Shown here: positions 1 to 39,612 of the stretch, in pieces | Layout of the letters: every line of letters starts with the position of its first letter | Numbering within the stretch: the first letter of the stretch is position 1 | IMG/VR virus record: IMGVR_UViG_3300022758_000169 | Source of the DNA: a virus | Taxonomy: Duplodnaviria > Heunggongvirae > Uroviricota > Caudoviricetes | Strand: one strand, 5' to 3' | DNA: 39,612 bases | The notes under the pieces: generated by a model | The model's database searches: none | Told to the model about the DNA's origin: nothing | The model's input: the letters and a program-made list of their open reading frames with translations, nothing else | Translations under genes and position numbers: made by a program

Positions 1-357
1 TGGATATCACGCAGGCATTTGCTCACACCGACGATGTAGCAGAACATGGTGGTCAGCTCCGCCGCCGCGCCCGATACGTCGTGCCCGTCGTCCTGTAACT
101 GGTTCAGCAGATTCATCAGCAGTGAGTTCTCCGTCAGGCCGAGAACACCAGATGGGGAATGAATCAGGCTGCGGTAGCCGGGCTTCAGTGGGGCACTGTA
201 GGTTTTGTTCTCTATCTTCATCGCCTGCATTACTGCTGACGCCGTGGCGTTGGCTACCTGGTCGGCAACCATCTTTATGCGTTCTTCTTGCGGGAGCGAG
301 TTTTTTATGTAACTTCCGGTGCGGCGGATCTGAGGAAGAACCTCACCTGTAACCCAT
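1..357. repeat. inverted repeat, left copy (antirepressor C-terminal module); reverse complement of 39256..39612
   Basis: Direct comparison: window start tggatatcacgcaggca is the reverse complement of the window end; about 98 percent identity over 357 bp with roughly 8 mismatches. Confidence 0.9.
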
Positions 358-668
358 TTACGAAAGCGGTAGGGGATAGTGCCTGGTGTCACTGCGTCGC
401 GGCAGCGGAGGATCAGTGTGTAGAGGCCTGACTCGGAGATGATGTTGATCTCTTTTACTCGGCTGTCAAAAATTGCACGATGTTCATGCCCTATGTTGAA
501 CATAGACCTTTCATCATCATCCAGTTTTTCAAGTGCTTGGGTGACGTTTTGGATACGCAGCGCACTACAAACGTCTTGGGCTACAAACCATGGTTGGCCA
601 TCGATAATGATGGAACGGATAGGGTTAACAGATTCAAATTTGAAGATGGAAGTTTGAGCATTAGCCAT
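1..668 (-). CDS. antirepressor, BRO-N-type N-terminal domain plus shared C-terminal module; 3' end cut by window edge
   Basis: ATG at 668..666 preceded by GGAGAT; translation MANAQTSIFKFESVNPIRSIIIDGQPWFVAQDVCSAL...ISESGLYTLIL...FRKWVTGEVLPQIRRTGSY is a BRO-N-like pattern; reading frame open to the window start. Confidence 0.75.
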   Translation of the reverse strand, partial: MANAQTSIFKFESVNPIRSIIIDGQPWFVAQDVCSALRIQNVTQALEKLDDDERSMFNIGHEHRAIFDSRVKEINIISESGLYTLILRCRDAVTPGTIPYRFRKWVTGEVLPQIRRTGSYIKNSLPQEERIKMVADQVANATASAVMQAMKIENKTYSAPLKPGYRSLIHSPSGVLGLTENSLLMNLLNQLQDDGHDVSGAAAELTTMFCYIVGVSKCLRDI

Positions 669-2107: not shown

Positions 2108-4771
2108 TTAACGCATCACCGGATCCACTTGGTTTATTAGTGGCGCAATCCAGAACAGGTTATTGCCGGGTATCAGGGTTCGGACATTATGCACAATACG
2201 ATCACCGGCATCACCATTCAACACTCCTGAGGTCACATCAATGATGCTATCCGCAAGACCAAATGACGGTCCGAATAGAGATCCTACGAATCCACGACTG
2301 GCATACCTGGACTGTGTGCCAGTGCCAAATAAAGCCCCCAGCCCAACAGCACCACCAGTCGCCTTTTCAGCCATGTTGTTATATTCCATCAATGGCCCAA
2401 GAATACCGGATCTATCTATACCCTCAAGCACCAGCTTCTCTGGTGACCAGTCAACATTTTTCCCTTTCGATGCTTCTTTAAGCGCATAGACCAGTGAGCC
2501 AAGAGCAATCTGAAATGCAGTGCCATAATAAAATTGCGCAGTTCCTTCCTGTAACCCACCAAGTAGCGCACGGTTGTATGAAGCCGTTGTGAATGATTTA
2601 AACTGAAATATCGTTCGCCCCATTGGAGTACTCGCCCATAAAGGTGTGTCACCAATACCGGGGGTGATGATAGTGTTATTAACGTCTTTCAGAACCGCTG
2701 ACTGGAATACTCCGGCAACGTACTGATCGTCCCATTTATCAAAGTTACCAATGTGCCATCCATCAATTACCTCACCATGTTTCTCGAACTCACTGCGAAT
2801 ACGCGCAGCCATATTGTCGTTGATACCGAGTTTTGCCATGCGACGTGCAGAAAACGCACCGGACAAAATACCGTCTGACGTGAGCATTCCGTTCATGGAT
2901 TTGTTTATGTCATTAAATCGATCCATGAGTGTCAGCTTGCCGAAGGCATCAGTAATTCGCTCCATTCCTGCTTCGACTGCTGTTGTCCTGGAAGAACTGT
3001 CAACAAGATCACCAATTGCACGAGAACGTGAATGTAGTACAGCTTCCAATCCAATCCCCATCTTCAACATATCTTCTTTGCTGGCCTTAAATGCCGGTGA
3101 TTGGGATATCTGAGAAGCATAGCCTTTCATGGTGTTACGGAAACCATTAACCATAACCCCTCTGGCCAGATCTGGAATAGCTGATACTGTCATTCCACCG
3201 AGTTTGGTCGTGAAGTTCACATCCCGCAGAAAAGCGCCAGCACGAACAAAAAACGAAGACGGATCATCAGGCATCCCATATGTACCAACAAGACGATCGC
3301 GTAATGCTGTTATGTCTCTGAGATCATTTGCTCTTGATTTTGAAAGTCTGGACTGTTCTTTCCGTAATTCCTTTTCGTACTTTCGCATTAATGAATCGAG
3401 TTTACCCTGAGGAACAACTTCACCATTGCTCTCATAACGTGCTTTCAGATTTGCCACACTTTCGTCATATTTCGCCTTTATTTTTTCAGGCACTTCCCGT
3501 AACAGACTGTCATATTCGTCCTCAATTAATTGCAGACGCTCTGTCATAGTTCGTTTGCCAAATGTTCTCGTCAACTCAATTTCTGCTGCCGCTTCACGGA
3601 TATGACGTTGTAGAACGTAATTCACATCACTTTCGAGATAATCCCTGATAAGACTATCAGGCACATTTAATGTTCTTTCTTTCGTACTACCTGCGGCTTT
3701 TACAGAAAATACGCTGACAAAATCCTGTGGAACCTTAGCACCAGTAATTTTATTAATTACGATATCCGCTGCAATTTCAGCATCCTCAGGATCCAGTGTT
3801 TTATTGCCTCTCGACCACCAGTCAACCAAAATACGTCGAAATTTATCGCGTTCACTGATTATTTTTCCAACTTTATATATACGTGGGAAATAGCTTGCCT
3901 GGCCTAATGCTTTCAGTTCTTCATCTGGAGGCAATAAACCAAGCTTTTGCATTTCAACCTTCACCCGATTTAATACAGTTCGCATCGCCTGCGCCGTTTC
4001 CTGAACAACAGGATTAGCATGCACATCACCGCTTCGCATAGCATTCCCAACCTGCTGACGAAATGAATCAAAACTCATGTCACCACCATCAGCTTTATAC
4101 TTTGCGTATGCCTGTTTATTTCCGACAACAACAGCAGCTTCTTCACGCTGCCATCCACGTGTACGGGTTTCTACAGCTACCGGTGTTTCAATCCCCCTTT
4201 CATTTCCTTTAAGGGTGAAATTATTTTCGGCTAACTCCAGCGTTGTTTTTCGCACTGTCTTGGACGGAGACTCCATTAACCTTGTCAAAGGAGTAAGATA
4301 GCTCCCTGCTTTCCATGCAGCCTTTCCAACCACCCCACCGGAAACAGGGGTTAAATCATCCAGAGTCGCTGTATCAATTTTCATAGCACCAACACTACCA
4401 CCATCAGAAAGCGAAGCGGCAGCCCTGTCAGTCGCTGATGTAATGCTCATATTATCAAGAGCATCAGCAACCTCACGCGTGGCTGCAGCCCGGACGGATG
4501 GCGAAAGCGCAACACCAGCACTGGCAAACACGCCGCTCATCATCGCACCCGCTGCAATGTGAGCGGCACTTTCACCCCATGAGCGTGTTATTTGCTGATT
4601 ATTCAGCACAACCTCGCTTAATGCTGTACCGGCTGCACCAATCGCAATCTGTGAGCCAATACGCGCCAGTGCCCCTCCTTGAGCACCGGGGATAAACATT
4701 GACGCAACAGTAACCGGATCCATTCCCGCAGCAATACTGGCAAGGGTTCCAACTACGCCAGCATCAGACAA
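2108..4771 (-). CDS. large internal virion / ejection protein (887 aa)
   Basis: Long ORF at the distal end of the virion operon, Gly/Ala-rich N-terminus; position analogous to T7-like internal core proteins. Confidence 0.55.
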   Translation of the reverse strand: MSDAGVVGTLASIAAGMDPVTVASMFIPGAQGGALARIGSQIAIGAAGTALSEVVLNNQQITRSWGESAAHIAAGAMMSGVFASAGVALSPSVRAAATREVADALDNMSITSATDRAAASLSDGGSVGAMKIDTATLDDLTPVSGGVVGKAAWKAGSYLTPLTRLMESPSKTVRKTTLELAENNFTLKGNERGIETPVAVETRTRGWQREEAAVVVGNKQAYAKYKADGGDMSFDSFRQQVGNAMRSGDVHANPVVQETAQAMRTVLNRVKVEMQKLGLLPPDEELKALGQASYFPRIYKVGKIISERDKFRRILVDWWSRGNKTLDPEDAEIAADIVINKITGAKVPQDFVSVFSVKAAGSTKERTLNVPDSLIRDYLESDVNYVLQRHIREAAAEIELTRTFGKRTMTERLQLIEDEYDSLLREVPEKIKAKYDESVANLKARYESNGEVVPQGKLDSLMRKYEKELRKEQSRLSKSRANDLRDITALRDRLVGTYGMPDDPSSFFVRAGAFLRDVNFTTKLGGMTVSAIPDLARGVMVNGFRNTMKGYASQISQSPAFKASKEDMLKMGIGLEAVLHSRSRAIGDLVDSSSRTTAVEAGMERITDAFGKLTLMDRFNDINKSMNGMLTSDGILSGAFSARRMAKLGINDNMAARIRSEFEKHGEVIDGWHIGNFDKWDDQYVAGVFQSAVLKDVNNTIITPGIGDTPLWASTPMGRTIFQFKSFTTASYNRALLGGLQEGTAQFYYGTAFQIALGSLVYALKEASKGKNVDWSPEKLVLEGIDRSGILGPLMEYNNMAEKATGGAVGLGALFGTGTQSRYASRGFVGSLFGPSFGLADSIIDVTSGVLNGDAGDRIVHNVRTLIPGNNLFWIAPLINQVDPVMR

Positions 4772-4797
4772 TAAACGTCTGTCTTCATTTTCATCAT

Positions 4798-5127
4798 CTA
4801 TCTGCTGCTTAATCCACGCCGTTTCCTCTGGCGATCGGGAATCTGCAAATTTCGCCCCCAGTATTCATAACCGTGCAACTCATTTTTATCAGCATATGGG
4901 TTATAACCTTCGACCGGTTCAAACTGTCTGGCAGGACGGAAAAAACCAGCCAGAATATTGTTCTGTCGTATTGCTGCGGCAAGCAATGAAGGCTCTTTGG
5001 GACGAGGTTCAGGGTTCTTACCTTCTGGCGGATGCACATCAAAACTCTGTTCATCAGGTTCAGGAATGGCGAGACCAGCAGAAATAAATCCGTTATTGTT
5101 TGATTCAGATACAGGATAGAACGGCAT
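4798..5127 (-). CDS. small virion-operon protein, translationally coupled
   Basis: ATG overlaps the upstream stop in TAATG at 5129..5125; 109-aa Pro-rich ORF. Confidence 0.4.
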   Translation of the reverse strand: MPFYPVSESNNNGFISAGLAIPEPDEQSFDVHPPEGKNPEPRPKEPSLLAAAIRQNNILAGFFRPARQFEPVEGYNPYADKNELHGYEYWGRNLQIPDRQRKRRGLSSR

Positions 5128-7835
5128 TATTTAGATCCCCACGAAAAGTAATCTTTAAATTTGTCCATACGTTCGTTATGCAGGCGCTGATACTGCTCAT
5201 CCAGAGCGCGATGCTTGTCTTTGAAGTTTCGTATAGCCTGTCCACGCATAATTTCTTCCTGCTCGTGCTGCTCCCGTTCCTGCTGCATTTTCTTATAAGG
5301 TTCCCAATCTTCTAGTGATGGCCCCCAGCGCATCTGTCTTCCATGCTTGTCATAAAATAAATCATCCCTCGTAATACCATCTTTATCTTTTGTTCTGATC
5401 ACAACTGAATAAAGCTTATCTCTCGGAGTTGATAAGTCAGGAACGAGAATCAACTCACCTCCAACCAGTGAGCGTGGCTTATTCAGTCCCAATGCACCAG
5501 CCTCAGTTGAAGGTCGGTTAAATGAAGGAGCCGGTTTATGTAAGTCATCGCCATACATGATTTTTTCTTTTTCAGCCTTCCATTGCGCTGCAATCCAGCC
5601 TGACGGCCCATATTGATAAAGCGCCTCCGGTGCATATTTCATAAACTGTGCTTCCCCGTTGACCTCGCTGATACTCCAAGTGCGGGCTATCTGCTGGTTG
5701 GTCATTTGCTTCGCTACGTCAGCGTTACCACCAGCAAGGCGATAGTTAACGTCATACAGCATCTGATAGTCATTGCGAAAGAGCGCTGCTTCCGGTGTCT
5801 GGTCATCCGCAGACGGATCCCAGCGAAGCCAGTGAGTCATATTACTGACAGCAGAATTGGCTGCGCTGTCACGCTCTTTTTTGTATTCTCTTGTACTCTG
5901 AACAGATGAGAGCTGCGCCCTTAGTGCATCTGTCTGGTTGTATGTCTTACTCTGCGCTTCCACAATAGCAGCATCTGAAGACATCCCTGCATCAGTTAGT
6001 TGCTTAACAGTCAGATAAAAACCCTGCATATCCTTCGGCATATTTCCAATAGATGCATTGTCTGTTTCATATAACCGACTAAACAGTTCCGCCGCATTTT
6101 TAACCACTTCCTGATTGCTGGATCGGGATACTGCTGAAAGCTGCGTGATGACCTGCGAAGGCATTATGCCAGTCTGAGCCACAAGCCGAACAACCCCATC
6201 ATGAGTGGAGGCATCATTAATACGAAAGTTCTGCGCCATTTCTGTGTAATCAGCAGCTTTCTGCATTGACTTGTTGCTTGGGTCTAATTTTTCACCTATT
6301 GTCAGCGCCTCATTAAATCTGCGTGAATCCCGTTGCGCCTGAATTGCTTCATTTGATCTCTGAAGCAATGCAGACAATTTTCCGTAAGCATCGAGTTTTA
6401 ACGCATAGTGAGGATCGTTAACCTCAGGCTTCACTTTCTGCATTTCTTCTTGCTGCTGAGAAGGAGGCAAATACTGAATTGTCTGGAATATTCTCGCGTT
6501 ATCAATCGCTATATCCAGTTGATTGATTATTTTATCTGCGTTTTTTCCATACCCCCTGATGATGGTCTCCTGAGCCGGTATATAATCTGGAACCTCACCG
6601 TTATATAGCTGGGCCATGGTGTTATTAATAGCTGGCTCAAGCTGTTCTAATATTAACTTCCTTTGCTTTTCTATCTGACTATTAGCAAGGTTATCTATTT
6701 GATAAATAGTCAGCGGATCCATTCCAGTTTTATTTTTTCTATATCGGGAAAGCCACCCTTGTGTTTCTGATGGAAGATTTCGGATAAATTCTTCTTCTGA
6801 TATTTCACCTTTACGTGGATCACCGACTTTGGCGATCAGTTTATCCACGTTACCCATCCCCCAGTTATATGCTGCTCCGGTCAATATTTCGGAACCGTAC
6901 TTACCATACAGTTGATTTACATAGTCACTGGCGAGCATTTCATGCTGTTGTTCGTCCGTAGGGTTGTATTCAACGCCACGTTTGGCCGCCAGTTCTTTCC
7001 CTGTGCCCGGCATTAACTGGTATTTCCCCTGGGCCCTCTCTCCAGAAGATGTTTTCGGTCCTTCAAGAATACTACCATCAGGATTAAAATGACGATCACC
7101 TGATTCAACAAGGCGTATGGCACGCATGTCCATGCCTCCAGAATCATTTTTCTGAAACTGACCATTTAACCATCCTTCCGGATTAGCAGCGGCATAATTC
7201 TTCGCCCGCATTTCTGTGGCACTGCGATCATCACTTTCTATTTCTTCCAGAATGCGTTCTTGTGACCATCCCCTGGCTGCTCCATATCTGGCAATGGCTA
7301 CCATTCTGGAATTTCTGGCTAAAGTGGCAGTTTGCGGGTCATTCCAGGCATCCGCTTCATTTTGTATCCATAATTTTCTCGTTGCCTGATATTGCTCATC
7401 TTCATAGGCATTTGTCTGCCCTATCTCATGTCTGAGAACTCCAGTACTGAACTGAATTTTCTGTGTTCTGGCTTGTTGCAAAAACATATTTCTTGCTGCT
7501 TCATCAGTCAATGAAGCAGCTATTTCTTCCACATCCTGATCAAATCCAGATATGTACTCTTGCCCCTTACCAATCGCATTTTTGCCTTGTTGTGCATAAA
7601 AACCGGTTTGAGGGTTATAAAGACGTTCATTGCTGCGCTGATTAAGCTGAAGGATGGCATCCTGAGACAATGCAACATTCGCTTTCTGCCTGGCTTCACC
7701 ATATGCCACCGCATACTGATCTGCGACATTCGCCAGCACCTGACCTGCCTGAGGAACATCGAAGGTTTGAAAACCACCGGTTTGCACACCACGACTTTGC
7801 ACCTGGCGTCCGGATGTAGTAGGAACAACAGGCAT
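5127..7835 (-). CDS. internal virion protein with lytic transglycosylase (SLT-like) motif
   Basis: 902-aa ORF; motif GERAQGKYQLMPGTGKELAA...AAYNWGMGNV resembles the SLT catalytic region. Confidence 0.7.
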   Translation of the reverse strand: MPVVPTTSGRQVQSRGVQTGGFQTFDVPQAGQVLANVADQYAVAYGEARQKANVALSQDAILQLNQRSNERLYNPQTGFYAQQGKNAIGKGQEYISGFDQDVEEIAASLTDEAARNMFLQQARTQKIQFSTGVLRHEIGQTNAYEDEQYQATRKLWIQNEADAWNDPQTATLARNSRMVAIARYGAARGWSQERILEEIESDDRSATEMRAKNYAAANPEGWLNGQFQKNDSGGMDMRAIRLVESGDRHFNPDGSILEGPKTSSGERAQGKYQLMPGTGKELAAKRGVEYNPTDEQQHEMLASDYVNQLYGKYGSEILTGAAYNWGMGNVDKLIAKVGDPRKGEISEEEFIRNLPSETQGWLSRYRKNKTGMDPLTIYQIDNLANSQIEKQRKLILEQLEPAINNTMAQLYNGEVPDYIPAQETIIRGYGKNADKIINQLDIAIDNARIFQTIQYLPPSQQQEEMQKVKPEVNDPHYALKLDAYGKLSALLQRSNEAIQAQRDSRRFNEALTIGEKLDPSNKSMQKAADYTEMAQNFRINDASTHDGVVRLVAQTGIMPSQVITQLSAVSRSSNQEVVKNAAELFSRLYETDNASIGNMPKDMQGFYLTVKQLTDAGMSSDAAIVEAQSKTYNQTDALRAQLSSVQSTREYKKERDSAANSAVSNMTHWLRWDPSADDQTPEAALFRNDYQMLYDVNYRLAGGNADVAKQMTNQQIARTWSISEVNGEAQFMKYAPEALYQYGPSGWIAAQWKAEKEKIMYGDDLHKPAPSFNRPSTEAGALGLNKPRSLVGGELILVPDLSTPRDKLYSVVIRTKDKDGITRDDLFYDKHGRQMRWGPSLEDWEPYKKMQQEREQHEQEEIMRGQAIRNFKDKHRALDEQYQRLHNERMDKFKDYFSWGSK

Positions 7836-8194
7836 CAGTAACCTCCTATTTTGAATCGGGAGTCAGAATTCATAAAACCTGAGTTAGATAACATTGGCGT
7901 TCCACCACCAGATGCACTTCCTTTAGAGAACGGACTCCACGTCCCACCAAACATCTGGTACGCACCGTATGCCTTCAGAGGCGCAGTGAGCAATGTTGTT
8001 GCTGCTCCCACATTCCCCTGTTTACGGGCTGAACTGGCTTCTGCTTTATAGTTGGCAGCCTGAACCTGATAACCGTAAGCCTCGCGTTGCGCGTTATTCA
8101 CCGTCGTCAGCGAATCAAGAGCGCCAAACTGAGCAGTGTCACCAAATATATCCAGCGCGTTACCTGTAGATAAATCGGCGCCGGTCGCCCCCAT
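7835..8194 (-). CDS. virion-operon protein; possibly the C-terminal part of a frameshifted gene
   Basis: 119-aa ORF; its frame stays open upstream to about 8272 and overlaps a 47-aa ORF (8265..8408) that starts in TAATG after the upstream gene. Confidence 0.4.
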   Translation of the reverse strand: MGATGADLSTGNALDIFGDTAQFGALDSLTTVNNAQREAYGYQVQAANYKAEASSARKQGNVGAATTLLTAPLKAYGAYQMFGGTWSPFSKGSASGGGTPMLSNSGFMNSDSRFKIGGY

Positions 8195-8407
8195 TGTCGC
8201 CGCCTGTGTACCAAGCCGCTGTCGGGTCTCTCTGCGCCGTTGCTCAGCTTCAGCGTTACCCTGTTTATTGCATCATTGCCTGAGCTGTGGCTATATCTGC
8301 GTTCGCTTCTGCAACCTTCGAGGCATACCTTCCCTGTTGGTACTGGGTGTATGCCTGAATGCCACTCATGGCGAGCATTGCGCCACCAGCAATAACCGGA
8401 TCGCACA

Positions 8408-8872
8408 TTATTTTCTCTCCATGTGAAATCTGTGGAAATTAAGACCAAGAGCACCATAAGGCGCGGCTTCTTCAAGCCTGAATCCAAGCCAGTGCAGCCA
8501 TGCTTTGGCAACATGGTTTCGCTCGTCGACGTAGTTTTCCAGGCGCGGATAAACTGCCAGCATCTGCTGCAATACAGGGCGGCAGTGGCGAAGAAATGTC
8601 TTCTGATATTTTTCAATACGGCTGGTCCCGACCAGCCAGGGCGTACCATTGCCACCGATCATTGACGCCGGAGATACACCAAACATGGTTACCAGTTCTC
8701 CGTTCGCGAACCCTGACCAGGCCATAGTCGCAGTGCGAAGACCAACACGCAGCGCATCTTCGGTAGTCATCAGCGATACCGCATACAGTTCGTCAATATC
8801 AGCCTGACGAACATCCGGCAAAATCATCTGAAGATGCTCTTCGGTAGCGGGAATAATTCGAACATCGATCAT
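8408..8872 (-). CDS. virion-operon protein (154 aa)
   Basis: ORF between the tail tube gene and the internal protein genes. Confidence 0.45.
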   Translation of the reverse strand: MIDVRIIPATEEHLQMILPDVRQADIDELYAVSLMTTEDALRVGLRTATMAWSGFANGELVTMFGVSPASMIGGNGTPWLVGTSRIEKYQKTFLRHCRPVLQQMLAVYPRLENYVDERNHVAKAWLHWLGFRLEEAAPYGALGLNFHRFHMERK

Positions 8873-17159: not shown

Positions 17160-17236
17160 GTGGCATTAGCTCAGTTGGACAGAGCAACCGCCTTCTAAGC
17201 GGTTGGTCGCAGGTTCGAATCCTGCATGCCACGCCA
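17160..17236 (+). tRNA. tRNA-Arg (anticodon UCU), phage-encoded
   Basis: Manual cloverleaf: acceptor GTGGCAT/ATGCCAC, D-stem GCTC/GAGC, anticodon stem ACCGC/GCGGT with loop CTTCTAA, T-arm GCAGG-TTCGAAT-CCTGC, discriminator G, encoded CCA. Confidence 0.85.
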
Positions 17237-25974: not shown

Positions 25975-26274
25975 ATGAACGTTAATCAGCAGAAAAATCT
26001 TCAAAAAATCATGCTGGCATTCGACAAGGACTACCGCCTGTCAGAACAGCTATATGACCGACAAGTTGAACTGATCGATAGCATCCGGCTTCATCAACTG
26101 GCCTCAACTTTTGACGCTGTAACAGGCAAAGGAGTTCGCCAGGAAGTACTGGAGGCTGCTAAAGACAGCCCTGAGTTCGAAGAACTGATGGATGCCTACC
26201 GGCGAGAGGCAATGGCAATTATCGCCCGCTGGGATCTGGCGGATCGGATTGATGGGCAGAGGGAAGCGGCATGA
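25975..26274 (+). CDS. hypothetical protein
   Basis: ATG at 25975; 99-aa ORF; stop overlaps the exonuclease start. Confidence 0.45.
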   Translation: MNVNQQKNLQKIMLAFDKDYRLSEQLYDRQVELIDSIRLHQLASTFDAVTGKGVRQEVLEAAKDSPEFEELMDAYRREAMAIIARWDLADRIDGQREAA

Positions 26275-27092
26275 AACCGGGAATTTATTTCGACATCAGC
26301 AATGAGGACTACCACGCCGGTGACGGCGTGAGTAAGTCGCAACTGGACATGGTTGCCAAGAATCCGGCGCTTCTTAAATGGGTTCAGGCAGCACCAGAAG
26401 ACGAAGAGAAAAAGTCTGCACTGGATATGGGAACCGCATTGCACTGCCTGCTTCTGGAGCCTGGAGAGTTCGACAAACGCTTCATTGTTTCACCGAAATT
26501 CGATCGTCGGACGAAACAAGGTAAAGCTGACGAAGAAGCATTTCTTCGTGATGTAGCGGATATGGGGATTACGGTACTTGATGCCGAGCAGTGGCGGAAA
26601 CTGGAGCTGATGCGTGATAGCGCAATGGCTCACCCGGCGGCACGCTGGATGCTGGAAGCACCTGGTTACTGCGAAGCATCAATGTACTGGAATGATGAAG
26701 AGACTGGTGAGTTGTGCCGCATTCGTCCAGACAAATGGCTGAACGAGCACAACGTGATCGTCGACGTGAAAAAGGTTGCAGATATGGACCGTTTTGCACG
26801 CCACATCGAGGAATTCCGCTACCACGTGCAGGACGCAATGTACCGCGAAGGCGCAATGAGGGTTACTGGTCAGCCGCATGGTTTTTTCTTTCTTGCCGTG
26901 AGCGAAAGCATTGATTGTGGTCGGTATCCGGTACGCGTGTTCGAGCTGGATGCGCCGGATGTCGATGCCGGGCACGCTCTGTTCCGCCGGGATCTGAATA
27001 CCTATCACGAATGCCGCATCAACGATGAGTGGGGCGGAGTGGAAATTATTAAACGCCCTGACTGGGCACGTAAACAGGATATGTACGTATGA
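26271..27092 (+). CDS. RecE-like exonuclease (PD-(D/E)XK)
   Basis: Strong similarity to the recalled RecE catalytic domain: PGIYFDISNEDYHAG...GTALHCLLLEP...RIRPDK...VIVDVKK...YHVQDA. Confidence 0.75.
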   Translation: MKPGIYFDISNEDYHAGDGVSKSQLDMVAKNPALLKWVQAAPEDEEKKSALDMGTALHCLLLEPGEFDKRFIVSPKFDRRTKQGKADEEAFLRDVADMGITVLDAEQWRKLELMRDSAMAHPAARWMLEAPGYCEASMYWNDEETGELCRIRPDKWLNEHNVIVDVKKVADMDRFARHIEEFRYHVQDAMYREGAMRVTGQPHGFFFLAVSESIDCGRYPVRVFELDAPDVDAGHALFRRDLNTYHECRINDEWGGVEIIKRPDWARKQDMYV

Positions 27093-27463
27093 GCAATGAT
27101 ATCGCAATCACATCACAACCAGGCGCAACTGTAGGTACTGCTGCGGCAATCTTCAGCCCGGAGGGCATGAATCAACTGGTGCGTTTCGCGGAGTTGATGT
27201 CACAAAGCAAAGCGACTGTACCGAAACATCTTGAAGGCAAACCTGCCGATTGTCTGGCGGTGACCATGCAGGCGGCACAGTGGGGAATGAACCCTTTCGC
27301 CGTGGCGCAGAAAACGCATGTGGTAAACGGAACGTTAGGCTACGAAGCACAGTTGGTAAACGCGGTCGTATCCTCTTCCAGCCTGCTAGCGACACGCCTG
27401 AATTATCGCTGGAGCGGTGACTGGTCGAATGTTAACGGCAAACAGATAAATCACCGAATCTGA
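27089..27463 (+). CDS. single-strand annealing protein (Bet/RecT-like), N-terminal fragment
   Basis: Motif WGMNPF; ends in a stop while the adjacent frame continues the homology. Confidence 0.5.
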   Translation: MSNDIAITSQPGATVGTAAAIFSPEGMNQLVRFAELMSQSKATVPKHLEGKPADCLAVTMQAAQWGMNPFAVAQKTHVVNGTLGYEAQLVNAVVSSSSLLATRLNYRWSGDWSNVNGKQINHRI

Positions 27464-27471
27464 CGGTAACT

Positions 27472-27969
27472 GTGTCAGCAGTTCTTAAAGGAGAAGCAGA
27501 ACCCCGTGAGCTTACCATCAGTATGGCGCAAGCCGGAGTGCGTAACTCTCCATTGTGGGAACAGGATCCGCGCCAGCAGCTTGCCTATCTTTGCACGAAA
27601 CGATGGGCTCGCCTGCACGCTCCTGATGTGCTTCTCGGTGTTTACACCCCTGACGAATTACAGGAAACGGCACCGCGCGTTGAGCGAGACATTACTCCGC
27701 AAACGACTACTGCTGCGGGAATGAACAGTCTGATCAACGCTAAACCAGTGAAAAAGCATGATGAGCAAACGCGTAAAGCGGATAGCCGTGATCCAGAAGA
27801 AATGCTGATGGCCTTTACCAGCGCAGCGATGAATTACAGCACTGTCTCCGAACTGGATAAGGCTTACAAATACATTGCACAAAAACTTTCAGATGATGAC
27901 GAACTGCTGGCAAAAGCCACCGACGTTTACAGCGTTCGTCGGGAAGAATTAAACGAAACATCTATGTAA
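27472..27969 (+). CDS. single-strand annealing protein (Bet/RecT-like), C-terminal fragment in a different frame
   Basis: Contains ERDITP and surrounding similarity to recalled lambda Bet; frame is open upstream to 27436, overlapping the previous ORF. Confidence 0.5.
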   Translation: MSAVLKGEAEPRELTISMAQAGVRNSPLWEQDPRQQLAYLCTKRWARLHAPDVLLGVYTPDELQETAPRVERDITPQTTTAAGMNSLINAKPVKKHDEQTRKADSRDPEEMLMAFTSAAMNYSTVSELDKAYKYIAQKLSDDDELLAKATDVYSVRREELNETSM

Positions 27970-28018
27970 CCACCACCGCGGCGCCACACGCGCCGCACTG
28001 CAACCAAGAGAGGTATTT

Positions 28019-28267: not shown

Positions 28268-28424
28268 GTGCGCTGCTAAGGCACTGGATCAAATGGTCAG
28301 GATGGTACTTATTCCTGGCCTCTGTTTCAGCATGGCTTTATCTGCTGGCATTAATTTTCAGAGAGGGTTGGATTAAGTGAGAAAGTTAAGCCGACTTGAA
28401 AAATATCACATGAATAAGGTTTCA

Positions 28425-28676
28425 ATGCGCAGTCCGTCAAAGATTGTCGCCGTTACTCCTGCGGCGATAGAGATCGAAAAACGCGCGATTGAAAGAGAGA
28501 AAAAAGGGCAGTTCCGCATTGCCGCTCACCTTTGGCTTCAGTGTATGGATGTTGCTTCTGGTGATGTTGAGCGTGCAAGGATCGCGGTTCGCAGGGACCA
28601 ATGTATCACAAAAGGTAACGGCCTTCGCCGTGGAGACTATAGCGGTATAGGATGTTGCGGGGTGGTTTATGACTAA
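28425..28676 (+). CDS. hypothetical protein
   Basis: ATG at 28425 with AAGG upstream; stop overlaps the methyltransferase start. Confidence 0.4.
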   Translation: MRSPSKIVAVTPAAIEIEKRAIEREKKGQFRIAAHLWLQCMDVASGDVERARIAVRRDQCITKGNGLRRGDYSGIGCCGVVYD

Positions 28677-29319
28677 GAAATACACACTAATCTATGCAGA
28701 TCCACCCTGGGTATACCGGGACAAAGCCGCAGATGGTAATCGCGGTGCCGGTTTTAAATATCCGGTTATGAGTGTGATGGATATCTGCCGCCTTCCTGTG
28801 TGGGATTTGGCCGATGAAAACTGTCTGTTGGCCATGTGGTGGGTGCCAACACAACCACTCGAAGCACTAAAAGTTGTTGAAGCCTGGGGGTTCCGTCTGA
28901 TGACCATGAAGGGCTTCACGTGGATAAAATGTGGTAGTCGACAACCAGATAAACTGGTTATGGGTATGGGACACATGACTCGCGCCAATAGTGAAGATTG
29001 CCTGTTTGCAGTTAAGGGAAAACTACCTCCGCGCATTAATGCAGGGATCGTTCAGTCATTTACCGCACCGCGGCTTGAGCATTCAAGAAAACCAGATGTC
29101 GTTCGTGAAAAACTTGTGCAATTGTTAGGCGATGTTTCTCGCATTGAACTGTTCGCCCGCCAGACGTCTCATGGCTTCGATGTTTGGGGTAATCAGTGCG
29201 AAGACCCGGCAGTGCAACTACACCCCGGATACGCGTTGGATATTGGCGGATTAACAAATGCATTCAGCAATGCTCCGCTGTCACCAACAGACAACCAGGG
29301 ACGGGAGCGTGCAGCATGA
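28669..29319 (+). CDS. MT-A70-family N6-adenine DNA methyltransferase
   Basis: Catalytic motif IYADPPW near the N-terminus; 216 aa. Confidence 0.75.
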   Translation: MTKKYTLIYADPPWVYRDKAADGNRGAGFKYPVMSVMDICRLPVWDLADENCLLAMWWVPTQPLEALKVVEAWGFRLMTMKGFTWIKCGSRQPDKLVMGMGHMTRANSEDCLFAVKGKLPPRINAGIVQSFTAPRLEHSRKPDVVREKLVQLLGDVSRIELFARQTSHGFDVWGNQCEDPAVQLHPGYALDIGGLTNAFSNAPLSPTDNQGRERAA

Positions 29320-29564
29320 AGCAGATTATGGTTGCACACAACGGCGTCAGGTTTGAAGTCGTCATGGTTTTGACTAAGTTCCACAATGATGAGGTATTGC
29401 ACAGAAAAGAAACTGTAACTTACCGTTATAAACACCGCAGTTCAGCTGTTAGAAAATTACGGAAGATTGCGGAAGAACTAAAAAATGATCCTCATCGTGT
29501 TATTGAGGTAAAAGGCAACCCATATAAAATCAAAACTTCAGTGGAGCTAAGACATATGCAATAA
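29316..29564 (+). CDS. hypothetical protein
   Basis: ATGA overlap with the methyltransferase stop; 82-aa ORF. Confidence 0.45.
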   Translation: MKQIMVAHNGVRFEVVMVLTKFHNDEVLHRKETVTYRYKHRSSAVRKLRKIAEELKNDPHRVIEVKGNPYKIKTSVELRHMQ

Positions 29565-29888
29565 AATCACGCCTGACGAATCGCGATTATCTCGCTATTG
29601 GTATTGCAGAGATTGCTGGACTCAATGGCGCATGATTTGACAATGCCGCCAGAGCTATCGCATACTGACCGCACTAGAAAACAAACAGCGGTCATCCGCA
29701 CCCGATAGCTTTGCGGCTTTTTTATGCCTGCAATCTGGCATAGTCACATCCGTACAAAGGTCGGGTGGAGAGGCGTAATACAACACCCGAAAGGGGAATA
29801 TGCCCGGAGCTACTGTTTGTGCTCTAGTTGACACCCGATCACCAGCTACTAACTGGTTTTCGTAACTAAAAACAAACAGGAGGTCATC

Positions 29889-30545
29889 ATGACCAGTCAA
29901 CTCATCCCCGTATTCAACGGCACTATATCTAACGAAACAGCCCTACTTTGTAATGCCCGCGATCTGCACGCTTTTTTAGGTGTTAAAAAGGTGTTTGCAG
30001 CATGGATTACAAATCGCATATCAGAATACGAATTCATTGAAAATCAAGACTATATTTTGCTTTCCAATTTGGGAAAGCAAACATCTGGTAGAGGCGGCCA
30101 CAACCGCAAAGAGTACCACCTCACCCTTGATACAGCCAAAGAGCTGGCGATGGTCGAGCGTAACGAAAAAGGTCGCCAGGTGCGACGCTACTTCATTGAA
30201 TGCGAGAAACGTTTAAGACAACAAGAAACAAAAGTGGAGAAGGTCTTGTCAGGCTTCATGCCCGCCATTATGGAGGCGATCAAGCTGGAAGACAAAAAAG
30301 AATACAGTGCCCCACTGAAGCCCGGCTACCGCAGCCTGATTCACTCGCCGTCTGGTGTTCTCGGCCTGACGGAGCACTCACTGCTGATGAATCTGCTGAA
30401 CCAGTTACAGGACGACGGGCACGACGTATCGGGCGCGGCGGCGGAGCTGACCACCATGTTCTGCTACATCGTCGGTGTGAGCAAATGCCTGCGTGATATC
30501 CAGACTCACGCGGAGTACATCAACGACAAGGCAGGGTTCTTCTGA
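29889..30545 (+). CDS. antirepressor (AntA/KilA-N-like N-terminal domain plus shared C-terminal module)
   Basis: Strong SD AGGAGG; C-terminal 68 aa nearly identical at DNA level to the two terminal copies. Confidence 0.7.
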
Positions 30546-30578
30546 CAGAACGGCGGCACAGGGATGTGTCGGGCAAAA

Positions 30579-31829
30579 TTATTCCCCCGCTATCCACTTC
30601 TCAAACTTCGACGGGGAGAACGGAATCAGATCTGTATGCTCCCCGTTAATCCAGGAATCAATCATATCGGCCCACTGCTGCAACATGTAGGCGCGCTGTC
30701 TGGCGTATTCCGCTTTGTTATATACGGCGCGCACACCTTTCTGCTCATGTGCCAGAGCCTTTTCAATCCAGTCTGAAGGATAACCAGCCTCATGCAACAA
30801 CGTACTGGCTGTACGGCGCATATCATGTACAGTGAAGTCCTGAATATGCTCACCATCTTCATTTATTATTTTCACCGTTCTGTCGATCAGAGAGTTCAGC
30901 GCGGCATTAGATAATGGCTTCCGGAAATTGTAACGACCAGGAACCAGATATTCACTTCCACCAGCGCACATCTGCAACCCGACCAATATATCCTGTGCCT
31001 GTTTAGGCAGGTAAATAACGTGCGCCCGGCTTCCCTTCATGCGGTCTGGAGGAATTGTCCATGTCCATTTTTTAAAATCTATTTCATCCCACGTTGCATT
31101 GGTGAATTCGCCCTTACGAACCATAGTGATAAGCACCAGTTTTAAAGCCATTTTCATAGTGCCCATAGCACCAATGGCATCCAGCGTACGGAAGAACAGG
31201 CCAATTTCTTCTGGTGTCAGTGTTCGCTCTCGTGGTTTAAATATGGCGATAGACGAAGGTTTAATGTCAGCCGCAGGATTAAACAAACCATGACCACGGT
31301 CATTGGCGTGACGGTATACGCTGCTGATGATCTCCCTTGCCTGTACTGCTGTTGCCCGACCACCGCGTTCGACAATCCGGTCACACAAATCACGAACCAT
31401 CGATGTGGTAATTTCAGCCATCATTTTGTTGCCAAGAACCGGAAGTATGTCACGGTCGATCACTGCCTGCTTCATTGCGCGGGTACTTTCAGCCAGGATG
31501 ACGTGTTTCATATAACTGTCGGTATGTACCGCAAACGTCTCGGCACCACGAATCTTTTTGATACCGTCACGTTTAGCCGCAGCCGGCGACTGGCCTGCTT
31601 TAAGCAGCTTCTTTGCAGCAATCAGTTCTTCTCGCGCTTCTGCCAGGCTGATACCGTCACGCCCATACTGCCCGATTACCAGTGTTTCGCGGCGACCGTT
31701 GATACGGTAGTCATAGCGAAACGAGGCCGTGCCTGACGTAAGCACAGCTACATACAGCCCGTCACGATCGGAGACCTTGTACAGTTTGTCCTGCGGCTTG
31801 AGGTTTTTTAATTTTGTATCGGTAAGCAC
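30579..31829 (-). CDS. int: tyrosine integrase
   Basis: 416-aa ORF; N-terminus MLTDTKLKNLKPQDKLYKVSDRDGLY; catalytic motifs HDMRRT and AVYNKAEY near the C-terminus; apparent GTG start. Confidence 0.85.
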   Translation of the reverse strand: MLTDTKLKNLKPQDKLYKVSDRDGLYVAVLTSGTASFRYDYRINGRRETLVIGQYGRDGISLAEAREELIAAKKLLKAGQSPAAAKRDGIKKIRGAETFAVHTDSYMKHVILAESTRAMKQAVIDRDILPVLGNKMMAEITTSMVRDLCDRIVERGGRATAVQAREIISSVYRHANDRGHGLFNPAADIKPSSIAIFKPRERTLTPEEIGLFFRTLDAIGAMGTMKMALKLVLITMVRKGEFTNATWDEIDFKKWTWTIPPDRMKGSRAHVIYLPKQAQDILVGLQMCAGGSEYLVPGRYNFRKPLSNAALNSLIDRTVKIINEDGEHIQDFTVHDMRRTASTLLHEAGYPSDWIEKALAHEQKGVRAVYNKAEYARQRAYMLQQWADMIDSWINGEHTDLIPFSPSKFEKWIAGE

Positions 31830-31871
31830 AATTCACCCGTATAGAAACCATTTTCATGACGGTATGAGAGT

Positions 31872-31886
31872 ATACCTTTAAGGTAA
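31872..31886. promoter_or_regulatory. operator-like palindrome (imperfect) ATACCTTTAAGGTAA upstream of int
   Basis: About 45 bp upstream of the integrase start. Confidence 0.4.
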
Positions 31887-31937
31887 TACCGTCACCTGTA
31901 CCGCAGAAAAATATGGTGTAGAGTGAATAGAAATGAA

Positions 31938-31974
31938 TACATAAAAACAAAAACCCTCTGTAAAAACAGAGGGT
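31938..31974 (-). terminator. rho-independent terminator after the lysis cassette
   Basis: 9-bp stem AACCCTCTG/CAGAGGGTT followed by a U-rich tract on the minus strand. Confidence 0.55.
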
Positions 31975-32123
31975 TGAATTAGTATCTGAATAGGAATGAC
32001 TTGCTATGAGTTAGCTGTTAATCATTCCCACTCAATTATTTACGACAACCATAACCAATTGACTGATAACATTTTTCCAAACCTCAACTTTTCCCGTACC
32101 GTTTTATATACCGTCACCGGAAA

Positions 32124-32621
32124 TCAGTGCCACGATTTTTTCTTCTTCAGTGAATCGTATTGCTGCTCGCAGAATTCCCCTGCGATACGATACTTTTCAG
32201 CCTCAGCTGCTGTTGCGTTGTAAACTCGGTTGCTTTCTTCAAGCATGTCGGCGAGCACACCGATGACCTTGCTGGCTGGCGTGCCAGGGGGGAAAGATCC
32301 GGTATAGTGTTCGGCGAGCCGCCTGGTTTTGTCAAGCTCGGCGCGCATGCTGTCAGCAGCGGAATTAGCATACTCAGCATCAGCACGCGCCGCATCGATA
32401 CGGGATTGTGCTTCACGTTCAATTTGTGTTTTCTCCTGCTCACGCTGTGACCTTAACTTATCATCAGCCTGTTTCTGATCTTCCTTCGCCTGCGCATACC
32501 CGGCATCGTACTGACGGATGCCGTGCACATTCCAGGCAACAACTCCTGATATGACCAGAACAGCAAGCATCGCCACGATAAGTAACTGTTTACGGTATGC
32601 TTTTACAAATGCCCAGATCAT
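32124..32621 (-). CDS. i-spanin (Rz-like)
   Basis: N-terminal TM helix, long charged coiled-coil body; immediately downstream of endolysin with ATGA overlap. Confidence 0.6.
32147..32395 (-). CDS. o-spanin (Rz1-like) embedded in a different frame
   Basis: Lipoprotein signal with lipobox LLTAC, Pro-rich mature part, fully inside the i-spanin gene. Confidence 0.5.
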   Translation of the reverse strand: MRRVLMLSMLIPLLTACAPSLTKPGGSPNTIPDLSPLARQPARSSVCSPTCLKKATEFTTQQQLRLKSIVSQGNSASSNTIH

Positions 32622-38806: not shown

Positions 38807-38960
38807 ATGTGTAAAGCGCACCTATTCTATGGTGGGCTGTGTGGGGGCACCGAAAGGTGCGCCGGGTTCCTTTGTAGCCGGTAAGACCAACTCTGCACAG
38901 TTCACCACCATCTGATTGGTCTCAGCGGTGGTGATTAACCTAACTACAAAGGTGATCGCC

Positions 38961-39612
38961 ATGAATACCAAACCTTCCATCTTTTCCTTTGAGTTATCCT
39001 GCCAGATCCGTATGTTCATGATTGACGGAGAACCTTGGTTTGTCACCAAAGATGTGTGCAATGCTTTGAATATTGATGTTACACAAGCGAGAAAACTTGA
39101 TAAAAAAGGGCTGGAACAAAAAGGGGGTCTGTATTCAATACAGACCCCTGGTGGAATACAAGAACTATCCATCGTTTCAGATCAGGTCTCTACATCCTTA
39201 TTCTGCGTTGCAAAGAGGCAATGACTGAGGGAACGAGAGCATTCAGATTTCTTGAATGGGTTACAGGTGAGGTTCTTCCTCAGATCCGCCGCACCGGAAG
39301 TTACATTAAAAACTCGCTCCCGCAGGAAGAACGCATAAAGATGGTTGCCGACCAGGTAGCCAACGCCACGGCGTCAGCAGTAATGCAGGCGATGAAGATA
39401 GAGAACAAAACCTACAGTGCCCCGCTGAAGCCCGGCTACCGCAGCCTGATTCATTCGCCGTCGGGTGTTCTCGGCCTGACGGAGCACTCACTGCTGATGA
39501 ATCTGCTGAACCAGTTACAGGACGACGGGCACGACGTATCGGGCGCGGCGGCGGAGCTGACCACCATGTTCTGCTACATCGTCGGTGTGAGCAAATGCCT
39601 GCGTGATATCCA
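38961..39612 (+). pseudogene. antirepressor (BRO-N plus shared C-terminal module), frame-disrupted by a 1-nt deletion near 39182; 3' end cut by window edge
   Basis: BRO-N frame (MNTKPSIFSF...) stops at 39224; homology continues in the +2 frame (SGLYILILRCKEAMTEGTRAFRFLEWVTGEV...); copy A has GAGTCAGGC where this copy has GATCAGGT. Confidence 0.55.
39256..39612. repeat. inverted repeat, right copy; a third direct copy of the last ~200 bp lies at 30302..30501
   Basis: Direct comparison with 1..357 and with 30302..30501 (about 3 mismatches over 200 bp). Confidence 0.9.

What the first reader, a model, noticed from the sequence alone, without database searches (positions are those of the whole stretch)
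27089..27969. Bet/RecT-like annealase appears split across two frames
Two adjacent ORFs in different frames both resemble a Redbeta-type annealase (WGMNPF in the first, ERDITP in the second). The second frame is open upstream to 27436 and overlaps the first, which places a frameshift around 27440..27465 near an AAA run. Together with the antirepressor and cro-like cases, the apparent frameshifts cluster in regulatory and recombination genes while every large structural ORF is intact.
Basis: partly seen in the sequence, partly recalled or inferred. Interest (0 to 1): 0.4.

Follow-up and report, generated by a model that had tools for sequence, protein, structure and literature searches.

The report
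RecT gene split by one-base homopolymer deletion
A phage recombination gene (RecT) looks broken in two only because this sequence lacks one A in a run of four A's; no related sequence shares that loss, and it is most likely a sequencing error rather than biology.

Summary
ORFs 27089..27463 and 27472..27969 are the two halves of one RecT-family gene (Pfam PF03837, profile positions 2-85 and 120-188). The break is a 1-nt deletion in a homopolymer: the window has GGC-AAA-CAG at 27440-27442, and every relative has GGCAAAACAG. All relatives examined have the four-A version: 70 of 70 fetched loci with a complete gene carry a single-frame 293-aa ORF, and 191 E. coli genome records, 9 phage records and 63 IMG/VR contigs match only with the extra A. 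The deleted version gave no hit in three large contig collections, and its truncated product is not on record.

The lesion is one of at least 15 private small indels in the window, nearly all homopolymer-length changes and often clustered. They also split a 1004-aa virion protein gene, a T7-gp14-family core protein gene, the cro-like gene and a BRO-N antirepressor gene. Six of eight relatives have 0-1 such indels over the same ~21 kb. The window's private substitutions are mostly synonymous (34 versus 11 nonsynonymous), and the genome is in the excised attP form.

Best explanation: a homopolymer consensus error. Rival: a genuine recent null mutation. Programmed frameshifting and a two-gene arrangement are rejected. 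Interest is low.

The parts
26271..27092 (+). RecE-like PD-(D/E)XK 5'-3' exonuclease gene (273 aa), the partner of RecT. Its TGA stop overlaps the recT ATG (ATGA at 27089-27092).
   Evidence: Pfam DUF3799 PDDEXK-like, 79.5 bits. 49% identity over 268 aa to the C-terminal nuclease domain of Rac RecE, E 2e-93. Annotated as exonuclease VIII/RecE-like in relatives.
27089..27463 (+). recT 5' fragment: 118 native residues, then 6 out-of-frame residues (QINHRI) and a TGA stop.
   Evidence: Pfam RecT, profile 2-85. 100% identical to residues 1-118 of the E. coli N25 prophage RecT.
27440..27442 (+). Lesion site: an A3 run that is A4 in all relatives (a 1-nt deletion). It moves the downstream reading frame by -1.
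   Evidence: Alignment A1. 8/8 relatives show the gap. 191 E. coli genome records and 9 phage records all match at 61/62. The A3 38-mer gave 0 hits in viral, genome and metagenome contigs. The A4 39-mer occurs in 63 IMG/VR contigs.
27436..27969 (+). recT 3' part in the -1 frame (residues about 118-293). It is listed mechanically as ORF 27472..27969 from a GTG. No Shine-Dalgarno-like sequence precedes that GTG or the next in-frame ATG.
   Evidence: Pfam RecT, profile 120-188. 99.4% identical to residues 118-293 of N25 RecT. Frame reading.
27089..27969 (+). The whole recT gene as it would read with the missing A restored (882 nt, 293 aa).
   Evidence: Relatives have one 882-nt CDS at the same position. 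The intact protein gives one Pfam RecT domain, residues 35-197 on profile 2-188, 110.8 bits.

Best explanation
The window carries one ordinary RecT-family single-strand annealing protein gene. It sits downstream of, and is translationally coupled to, a RecE-like exonuclease gene, forming a RecET-type recombination module of a Uetakevirus-like (phiV10/TL-2011b group) temperate E. coli phage. The gene appears split because the sequence has three A's where all relatives have four (27440-27442). The most likely cause is a homopolymer-length miscall in the sequencing or consensus of this record, not a change in the phage's DNA. The real phage most likely makes an intact 293-aa RecT. Shown: the lesion, its uniqueness, and the genome-wide excess of homopolymer indels. 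Inferred: that these are errors rather than mutations.
For: (1) The lesion is a 1-nt run-length change, A3 versus A4.
(2) It is private to this sequence. All 70 fetched loci that contain the complete gene have a single-frame 293-aa ORF with no stop. All 191 E. coli genome records and all 9 phage records that match a 61-nt probe do so at 61/62, meaning they carry the extra A. The deleted version is absent from IMG/VR, GTDB species-representative genomes and JGI metagenomes. The 124-aa truncated product is not on record in the gene-position index.
(3) It is one of many. In 21,335 nt covered by at least 5 relatives, the window has 10 private isolated 1-nt indels. N25, A3176, ZX5, Phi05_2388B and HEMP4 have 0 each, TL-2011b has 1 (an N), PAS61 has 1 and phiv142-3 has 6. 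Five more lie outside that set, at 4860 and at 39108, 39127-8 and 39180. Ten of the 11 sites examined are homopolymer-length changes in both directions, in runs as short as 1-3 nt.
(4) The indels are clustered: 8262 and 8278; four +1 insertions within 175 nt at 24861-25036; and +1, +2 and -1 within 75 nt at 39108-39180.
(5) They break genes a virion needs: the 1004-aa virion protein and the T7-gp14-family core protein. Yet the window is in the excised attP configuration. The integrase gene is joined to the lysis cassette, collinear with sequenced phage genomes across 32036, where the prophage alignments stop.
(6) The window's private substitutions are 34 synonymous, 11 nonsynonymous and 9 noncoding. 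The lineage has therefore been under purifying selection, which does not fit long-term decay.
(7) The flanking recT sequence is otherwise essentially identical to intact alleles: 1 amino-acid difference in 293.
Against: No reads, quality values or platform information are available, so the error is inferred and not observed. Homopolymer slippage is also the commonest natural source of 1-nt indels. The indel-to-substitution ratio (10:54) is only a few-fold above a neutral expectation (my own rough figure, not computed here). RecT is dispensable for lytic growth, so a genuine null allele would be tolerated. A prophage can carry several recent real frameshifts.
Confidence: 0.72

Rival explanations
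1. The 1-nt deletion is genuine: a recent slippage mutation in the A4 run has inactivated recT. The product would be a 124-aa N-terminal fragment, with the C-terminal half untranslated. The other indels would likewise be real and would mark a defective or decaying element, perhaps one propagated in a mutator host.
For: The lesion is in the sequence as given. Homopolymers are natural indel hotspots. RecT is non-essential for phage growth. Several other genes in the same window also carry frameshifts, as a decaying prophage would. Relatives in E. coli genomes carry their own pseudogenes and an IS insertion.
Against: No other sequence shares the allele. No decay follows the frameshift: the downstream part is 99.4% identical. 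The indels are tightly clustered and go in both directions in very short runs. Substitutions show strong purifying selection. The genome is full length and in attP form, with no large deletions or IS elements. Good-quality relatives have 0-1 such indels.
Confidence: 0.25
2. Programmed -1 ribosomal frameshifting or transcriptional slippage produces full-length RecT from the two frames. Alternatively, the two ORFs are separate functional genes.
For: A 25-nt overlap zone (27436-27460) exists in which a -1 shift would restore the protein.
Against: There is no X_XXY_YYZ heptamer in the zone. The downstream RNA folds no better than shuffled sequence (z +0.56). An A3 run is far too short for transcriptional slippage. 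None of the 70 relatives has the two-frame arrangement. Both halves belong to one Pfam domain. ORF2 has no recognisable ribosome-binding site.
Confidence: 0.02

Closest known systems
RecT family recombinase WP_000063820.1 of guaA-integrated E. coli prophages (strains N25, A3176), and the RecT-like proteins of phages TL-2011b (YP_007001957.1), phiv142-3 (QGF19653.1) and vB_EcoP_ZX5 (QTH80028.1)
   Same: Same gene at the same position, downstream of the RecE-like exonuclease. Nucleotide identity is 98-99.9%. Protein identity is 100% and 99.4% on either side of the shift.
   Different: Those records have A4 and a single 882-nt ORF. The window has A3 and therefore two ORFs.
RecET of the Rac cryptic prophage (E. 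coli K-12 b1349/b1350)
   Same: Same module logic and gene order: exonuclease upstream, annealase downstream, overlapping stop and start. The window's exonuclease is 49% identical to the RecE C-terminal nuclease domain. Both annealases fall in Pfam RecT.
   Different: The window's exonuclease is only the 273-aa nuclease domain, not the 866-aa RecE. The annealase is not detectably similar to Rac RecT by BLASTP (E 0.51). It is a distant branch of the RecT family with a roughly 95-aa C-terminal extension beyond the Pfam domain.
Lambda Red-beta (Bet)
   Same: The same functional role is expected: a phage single-strand annealing protein paired with a 5'-3' exonuclease. This rests on general knowledge of the families.
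   Different: No Red-beta family model was hit. Only PF03837 RecT passed E<=0.1.
Homopolymer indel artefacts in deposited phage genomes, for example phiv142-3 (MN187550)
   Same: phiv142-3 shows 6 private 1-nt deletions in the same shared region. Its methylase and integrase are annotated as short or split genes. This is the same signature as in the window.
   Different: Different sites. Its recT is intact.

Membership tests
RecT family (Pfam PF03837) | Sequence scores above the curated Pfam gathering threshold (24 bits) | tested here: met
   N-terminal fragment 61.3 bits, C-terminal fragment 47.6 bits. The intact relative scores 110.8 bits, as one domain covering residues 35-197 and profile 2-188.
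RecT family (Pfam PF03837) | The domain is encoded contiguously in one reading frame | tested here: not met
   In the window the domain is split between two frames at 27440. It is contiguous in 70/70 relatives with the complete gene.
RecT family (Pfam PF03837) | Paired with a 5'-3' dsDNA exonuclease gene in the same operon | tested here: met
   A RecE-like PDDEXK exonuclease lies immediately upstream with an ATGA stop/start overlap.
RecT family (Pfam PF03837) | ssDNA binding and annealing activity | not testable with these tools
   Needs biochemistry or a recombineering assay.
Lambda Red-beta/Bet family | Match to a Red-beta family profile | tested here: not met
   Pfam scans at E<=0.1 and E<=0.01 returned only RecT.
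Programmed -1 ribosomal frameshift | Slippery heptamer X_XXY_YYZ in the overlap zone | tested here: not met
   None found in 27420-27463.
Programmed -1 ribosomal frameshift | Stable stimulatory RNA structure downstream | tested here: not met
   MFE -18.8 kcal/mol against a shuffle mean of -20.5, z +0.56.
Programmed -1 ribosomal frameshift | Two-frame arrangement conserved in relatives | tested here: not met
   0 of 70 relatives. All are A4.
Genuine pseudogene (real frameshift allele) | The lesion is seen in independent sequences of the same lineage | tested here: not met
   0 hits for the A3 38-mer in three collections. No 100% match among E. coli genome or phage records. The truncated product is not on record.
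Genuine pseudogene (real frameshift allele) | The lesion is supported by raw reads | not testable with these tools
   No reads or quality values are available.

The most novel reading that the evidence does not exclude
The homopolymer indels are real. This phage genome would have accumulated a burst of 1-nt slippage mutations, for example during replication in a mismatch-repair-deficient host. These would knock out RecT, Cro, an antirepressor and two virion proteins while the genome remained in excised form. That would make it a naturally occurring multiply defective Uetakevirus-like element, and a natural recT-null allele.
Probability: 0.2. Interest if true: 0.15.

Novelty: not a real feature. 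Interest (0 to 1): 0.05.

Why it matters
It matters mainly for curation. The record should be annotated with one recT gene, either corrected or flagged as frameshifted, rather than with two hypothetical ORFs. The other split genes in this window should be read the same way. The apparent targeting of frameshifts to regulatory and recombination genes is not a biological signal. If the deletion proved real, it would only be one more example of a dispensable recombination gene lost in a temperate phage.

Tried and rejected
- Exact-pattern scans for the deleted (A3) allele in IMG/VR, GTDB species-representative genomes and JGI metagenomes found nothing.
- An exact-product look-up of the truncated 124-aa protein found nothing.
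- A sequence search of the PDB with the intact RecT gave no hit at E<=1, so I made no structural statement about the break point beyond the Pfam domain coverage.
- BLASTP against Rac RecT was not significant, so I rejected calling this a close RecT(Rac) homologue.
- My first attempt to compare the exonuclease with RecE failed on frame and was redone.
- I rejected programmed frameshifting.
- I rejected two separate conserved genes.
- I considered a prophage decaying in a chromosome less likely, because the window is in attP form with no host flanks.
- I did not use the large protein-homology searches or structure prediction. The question was settled at the DNA level.

Full report
**What is there.** The region holds two adjacent ORFs on the + strand in different frames: 27089..27463 (124 aa) and 27472..27969 (165 aa). 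Both pass the Pfam RecT (PF03837) gathering threshold on complementary parts of the model. The first covers profile positions 2-85 and the second covers 120-188. Immediately upstream is a 273-aa PD-(D/E)XK protein (26271..27092, DUF3799). It is 49% identical to the C-terminal nuclease domain of Rac RecE (E 2e-93). Its TGA stop overlaps the first ORF's ATG (ATGA at 27089-27092). This is therefore a RecET-type exonuclease and annealase module.

**Relatives have one gene.** A megablast of 27050-28000 found 22 phage records and 472 E. coli genome records. Nearly all full-length matches span 952 nt against the window's 951. In E. coli N25, phiv142-3 and TL-2011b, the two window ORFs are covered by a single annotated 882-nt CDS, labelled RecT family recombinase or RecT-like ssDNA annealing protein. 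Its translation is an uninterrupted 293-aa protein. PAS61 annotates a shorter call from an internal start, but its DNA is intact. The intact protein gives one contiguous Pfam RecT domain, residues 35-197, at 110.8 bits.

**The lesion.** Alignment A1 shows the window reads GGC-AAACAG where all four relatives read GGCAAAACAG. One A is missing from an A4 run, leaving A3 at 27440-27442.
- The upstream frame then reads six wrong codons and stops at the TGA at 27461-27463.
- The downstream part continues in the -1 frame, which is open from 27436.
- tblastn with the N25 protein aligns residues 1-118 at 100% identity in one frame and residues 118-293 at 99.4% identity in the other.

**The lesion is private to this sequence.**
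- A 61-nt probe across the site matched 191 E. coli genome records and 9 phage records, all at 61/62 and none at 100%.
- The exact 38-mer with A3 is absent from IMG/VR, from one genome per GTDB species, and from the JGI metagenome contigs.
- The 39-mer with A4 occurs in 63 IMG/VR contigs.
- Across all 75 loci held, 70 have a single-frame hit to residues 1-293 with no stop. The other 5 are simply cut by locus ends. None is split. Four of the 75 are re-fetches of the same records.
- The truncated 124-aa product is not on record in the gene-position index.

**The wider window.** The window is a full-length, roughly 39.6-kb Uetakevirus-like genome of the TL-2011b / ZX5 / phiV10 group.
- It is in the excised attP configuration. 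The alignment to guaA-integrated prophages stops at 32036, at the 3' end of guaA. Sequenced phage genomes stay collinear across that point, from the integrase gene into the lysis genes.
- Against eight relatives, in the 21,335 nt covered by at least five of them, the window has 10 private isolated 1-nt indels. They lie at 8261, 8276, 17317, 24861, 24978, 25010, 25033, 25706, 27440 and 37533.
- Over the same region N25, A3176, ZX5, Phi05_2388B and HEMP4 have none. TL-2011b has one (an N) and PAS61 has one. phiv142-3 has six.
- More private indels lie outside that set. At 4860 the window has C5 where 45 of 45 E. coli genomes have C6. In the BRO-N antirepressor gene there are +1, +2 and -1 changes at 39108, 39127-8 and 39180.
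- All but one of the sites examined are homopolymer run-length changes. They go in both directions and occur in runs as short as one to three bases.
- They are clustered: two within 17 nt, four insertions within 175 nt, and three events (four bases) within 75 nt.

**Genes affected.** These indels split not only recT and the cro-like gene (24861) but also two structural genes. The 1004-aa virion protein gene is broken at about 4858. The T7-gp14-family core protein gene is broken at 8263/8277.

**Error or mutation?** Reads are not available, so this is an inference. Five points favour error:
- The excess of private homopolymer indels compared with well-assembled relatives.
- Their clustering and bidirectionality.
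- The disruption of virion genes in a genome that is in phage form.
- The strong synonymous bias of the window's private substitutions, 34 synonymous against 11 nonsynonymous. This shows the lineage was under purifying selection.
- The absence of any decay downstream of the frameshift.

Three points favour a real mutation. Homopolymer slippage is the usual natural route to such changes. RecT is dispensable. The indel-to-substitution ratio is only a few-fold above a neutral expectation. I put error at about 0.72 and a genuine null allele at about 0.25.

**Recoding is rejected.** The 27436-27460 overlap zone has no X_XXY_YYZ heptamer. The downstream RNA folds no better than shuffled sequence (z +0.56). 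An A3 run is too short for transcriptional slippage. No relative has the two-frame arrangement. The second ORF has no recognisable ribosome-binding site before its GTG or its first in-frame ATG, so independent expression of a C-terminal half is not supported. Both halves belong to a single domain model.

**Comparison with known families.** The gene belongs to Pfam RecT. It is not a Red-beta/Bet family member by profile. It is only a distant relative of Rac RecT (BLASTP E 0.51), although its partner exonuclease is clearly RecE-like. No solved structure was found by sequence.

**Verdict.** The split is a real property of the sequence as given. It is an ordinary single-base homopolymer deletion in a well-known gene, most probably an artefact, and of low interest.

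Noticed in passing
window 2108-5127 (- strand), lesion at about 4860: The gene for a 1004-aa virion protein (homologue of TL-2011b gp38) is split into 109-aa and 887-aa ORFs by a C5-versus-C6 run-length difference. All 45 E. coli genomes with this segment, plus N25 and TL-2011b, have C6.
   Followed up: yes
window 7835-8408 (- strand), lesions at 8262 and 8278: The gene for the T7-gp14-family virion core protein (181 aa in relatives) is split by two private 1-nt deletions 16 nt apart (C3 versus C4, T2 versus T3). 7 of 7 relatives agree against the window.
   Followed up: yes
window 24697-25711: The cro-like gene (76 aa in relatives) is split by an extra C at 24861. Three further private +1 insertions (24978-83, 25010-13, 25033-36) lie in the repressor/cro intergenic region. 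One T is missing from the T-tract of the terminator-like hairpin just after the repressor gene (25706-11). The repressor ORF itself (25083..25667) is intact.
   Followed up: partly
window 38916-39612: The BRO-N antirepressor gene carries +1 (39108), +2 (39127-8) and -1 (39180) homopolymer changes relative to the E. coli N25 homologue.
   Followed up: partly
window 1-431 and 39182-39612; also 30290-30502: The two ends of the window are inverted repeats of each other (431 nt, 92% complementary). Both ends cut a BRO-N/Ant paralogue at the same residue (about 217 of 231), and a third copy of the 213-nt segment lies in the Ant gene at 29889..30545. The contig appears to have broken at a repeat, so the antirepressor region between the ends may be incomplete.
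   Followed up: partly
window 30579-32621: The integrase gene (30579..31829, - strand) is joined directly to the lysis cassette, as in virion-derived phage genomes (attP form). Related prophages are integrated at the 3' end of guaA, and their alignment to the window stops at 32036.
   Followed up: partly
L012 (phiv142-3, MN187550), positions matching window 28399-31470: This published relative has six private 1-nt deletions of its own. Its methylase and integrase are annotated as short or split ORFs, which is probably the same kind of sequencing artefact.
   Followed up: partly
L003/L011 (vB_EcoP_PAS61, OQ921333): Annotation inconsistency in a relative. The RecE-like exonuclease is labelled 'RecT protein', and the true recT is called from an internal start (705 nt) although the full 882-nt ORF is open.
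   Followed up: no
window 17160-17236 (+): A tRNA-Arg (anticodon TCT) lies between the portal and terminase gene blocks, as in relatives. A private T4-versus-T5 indel lies just downstream at 17317-21, apparently in noncoding sequence.
   Followed up: no
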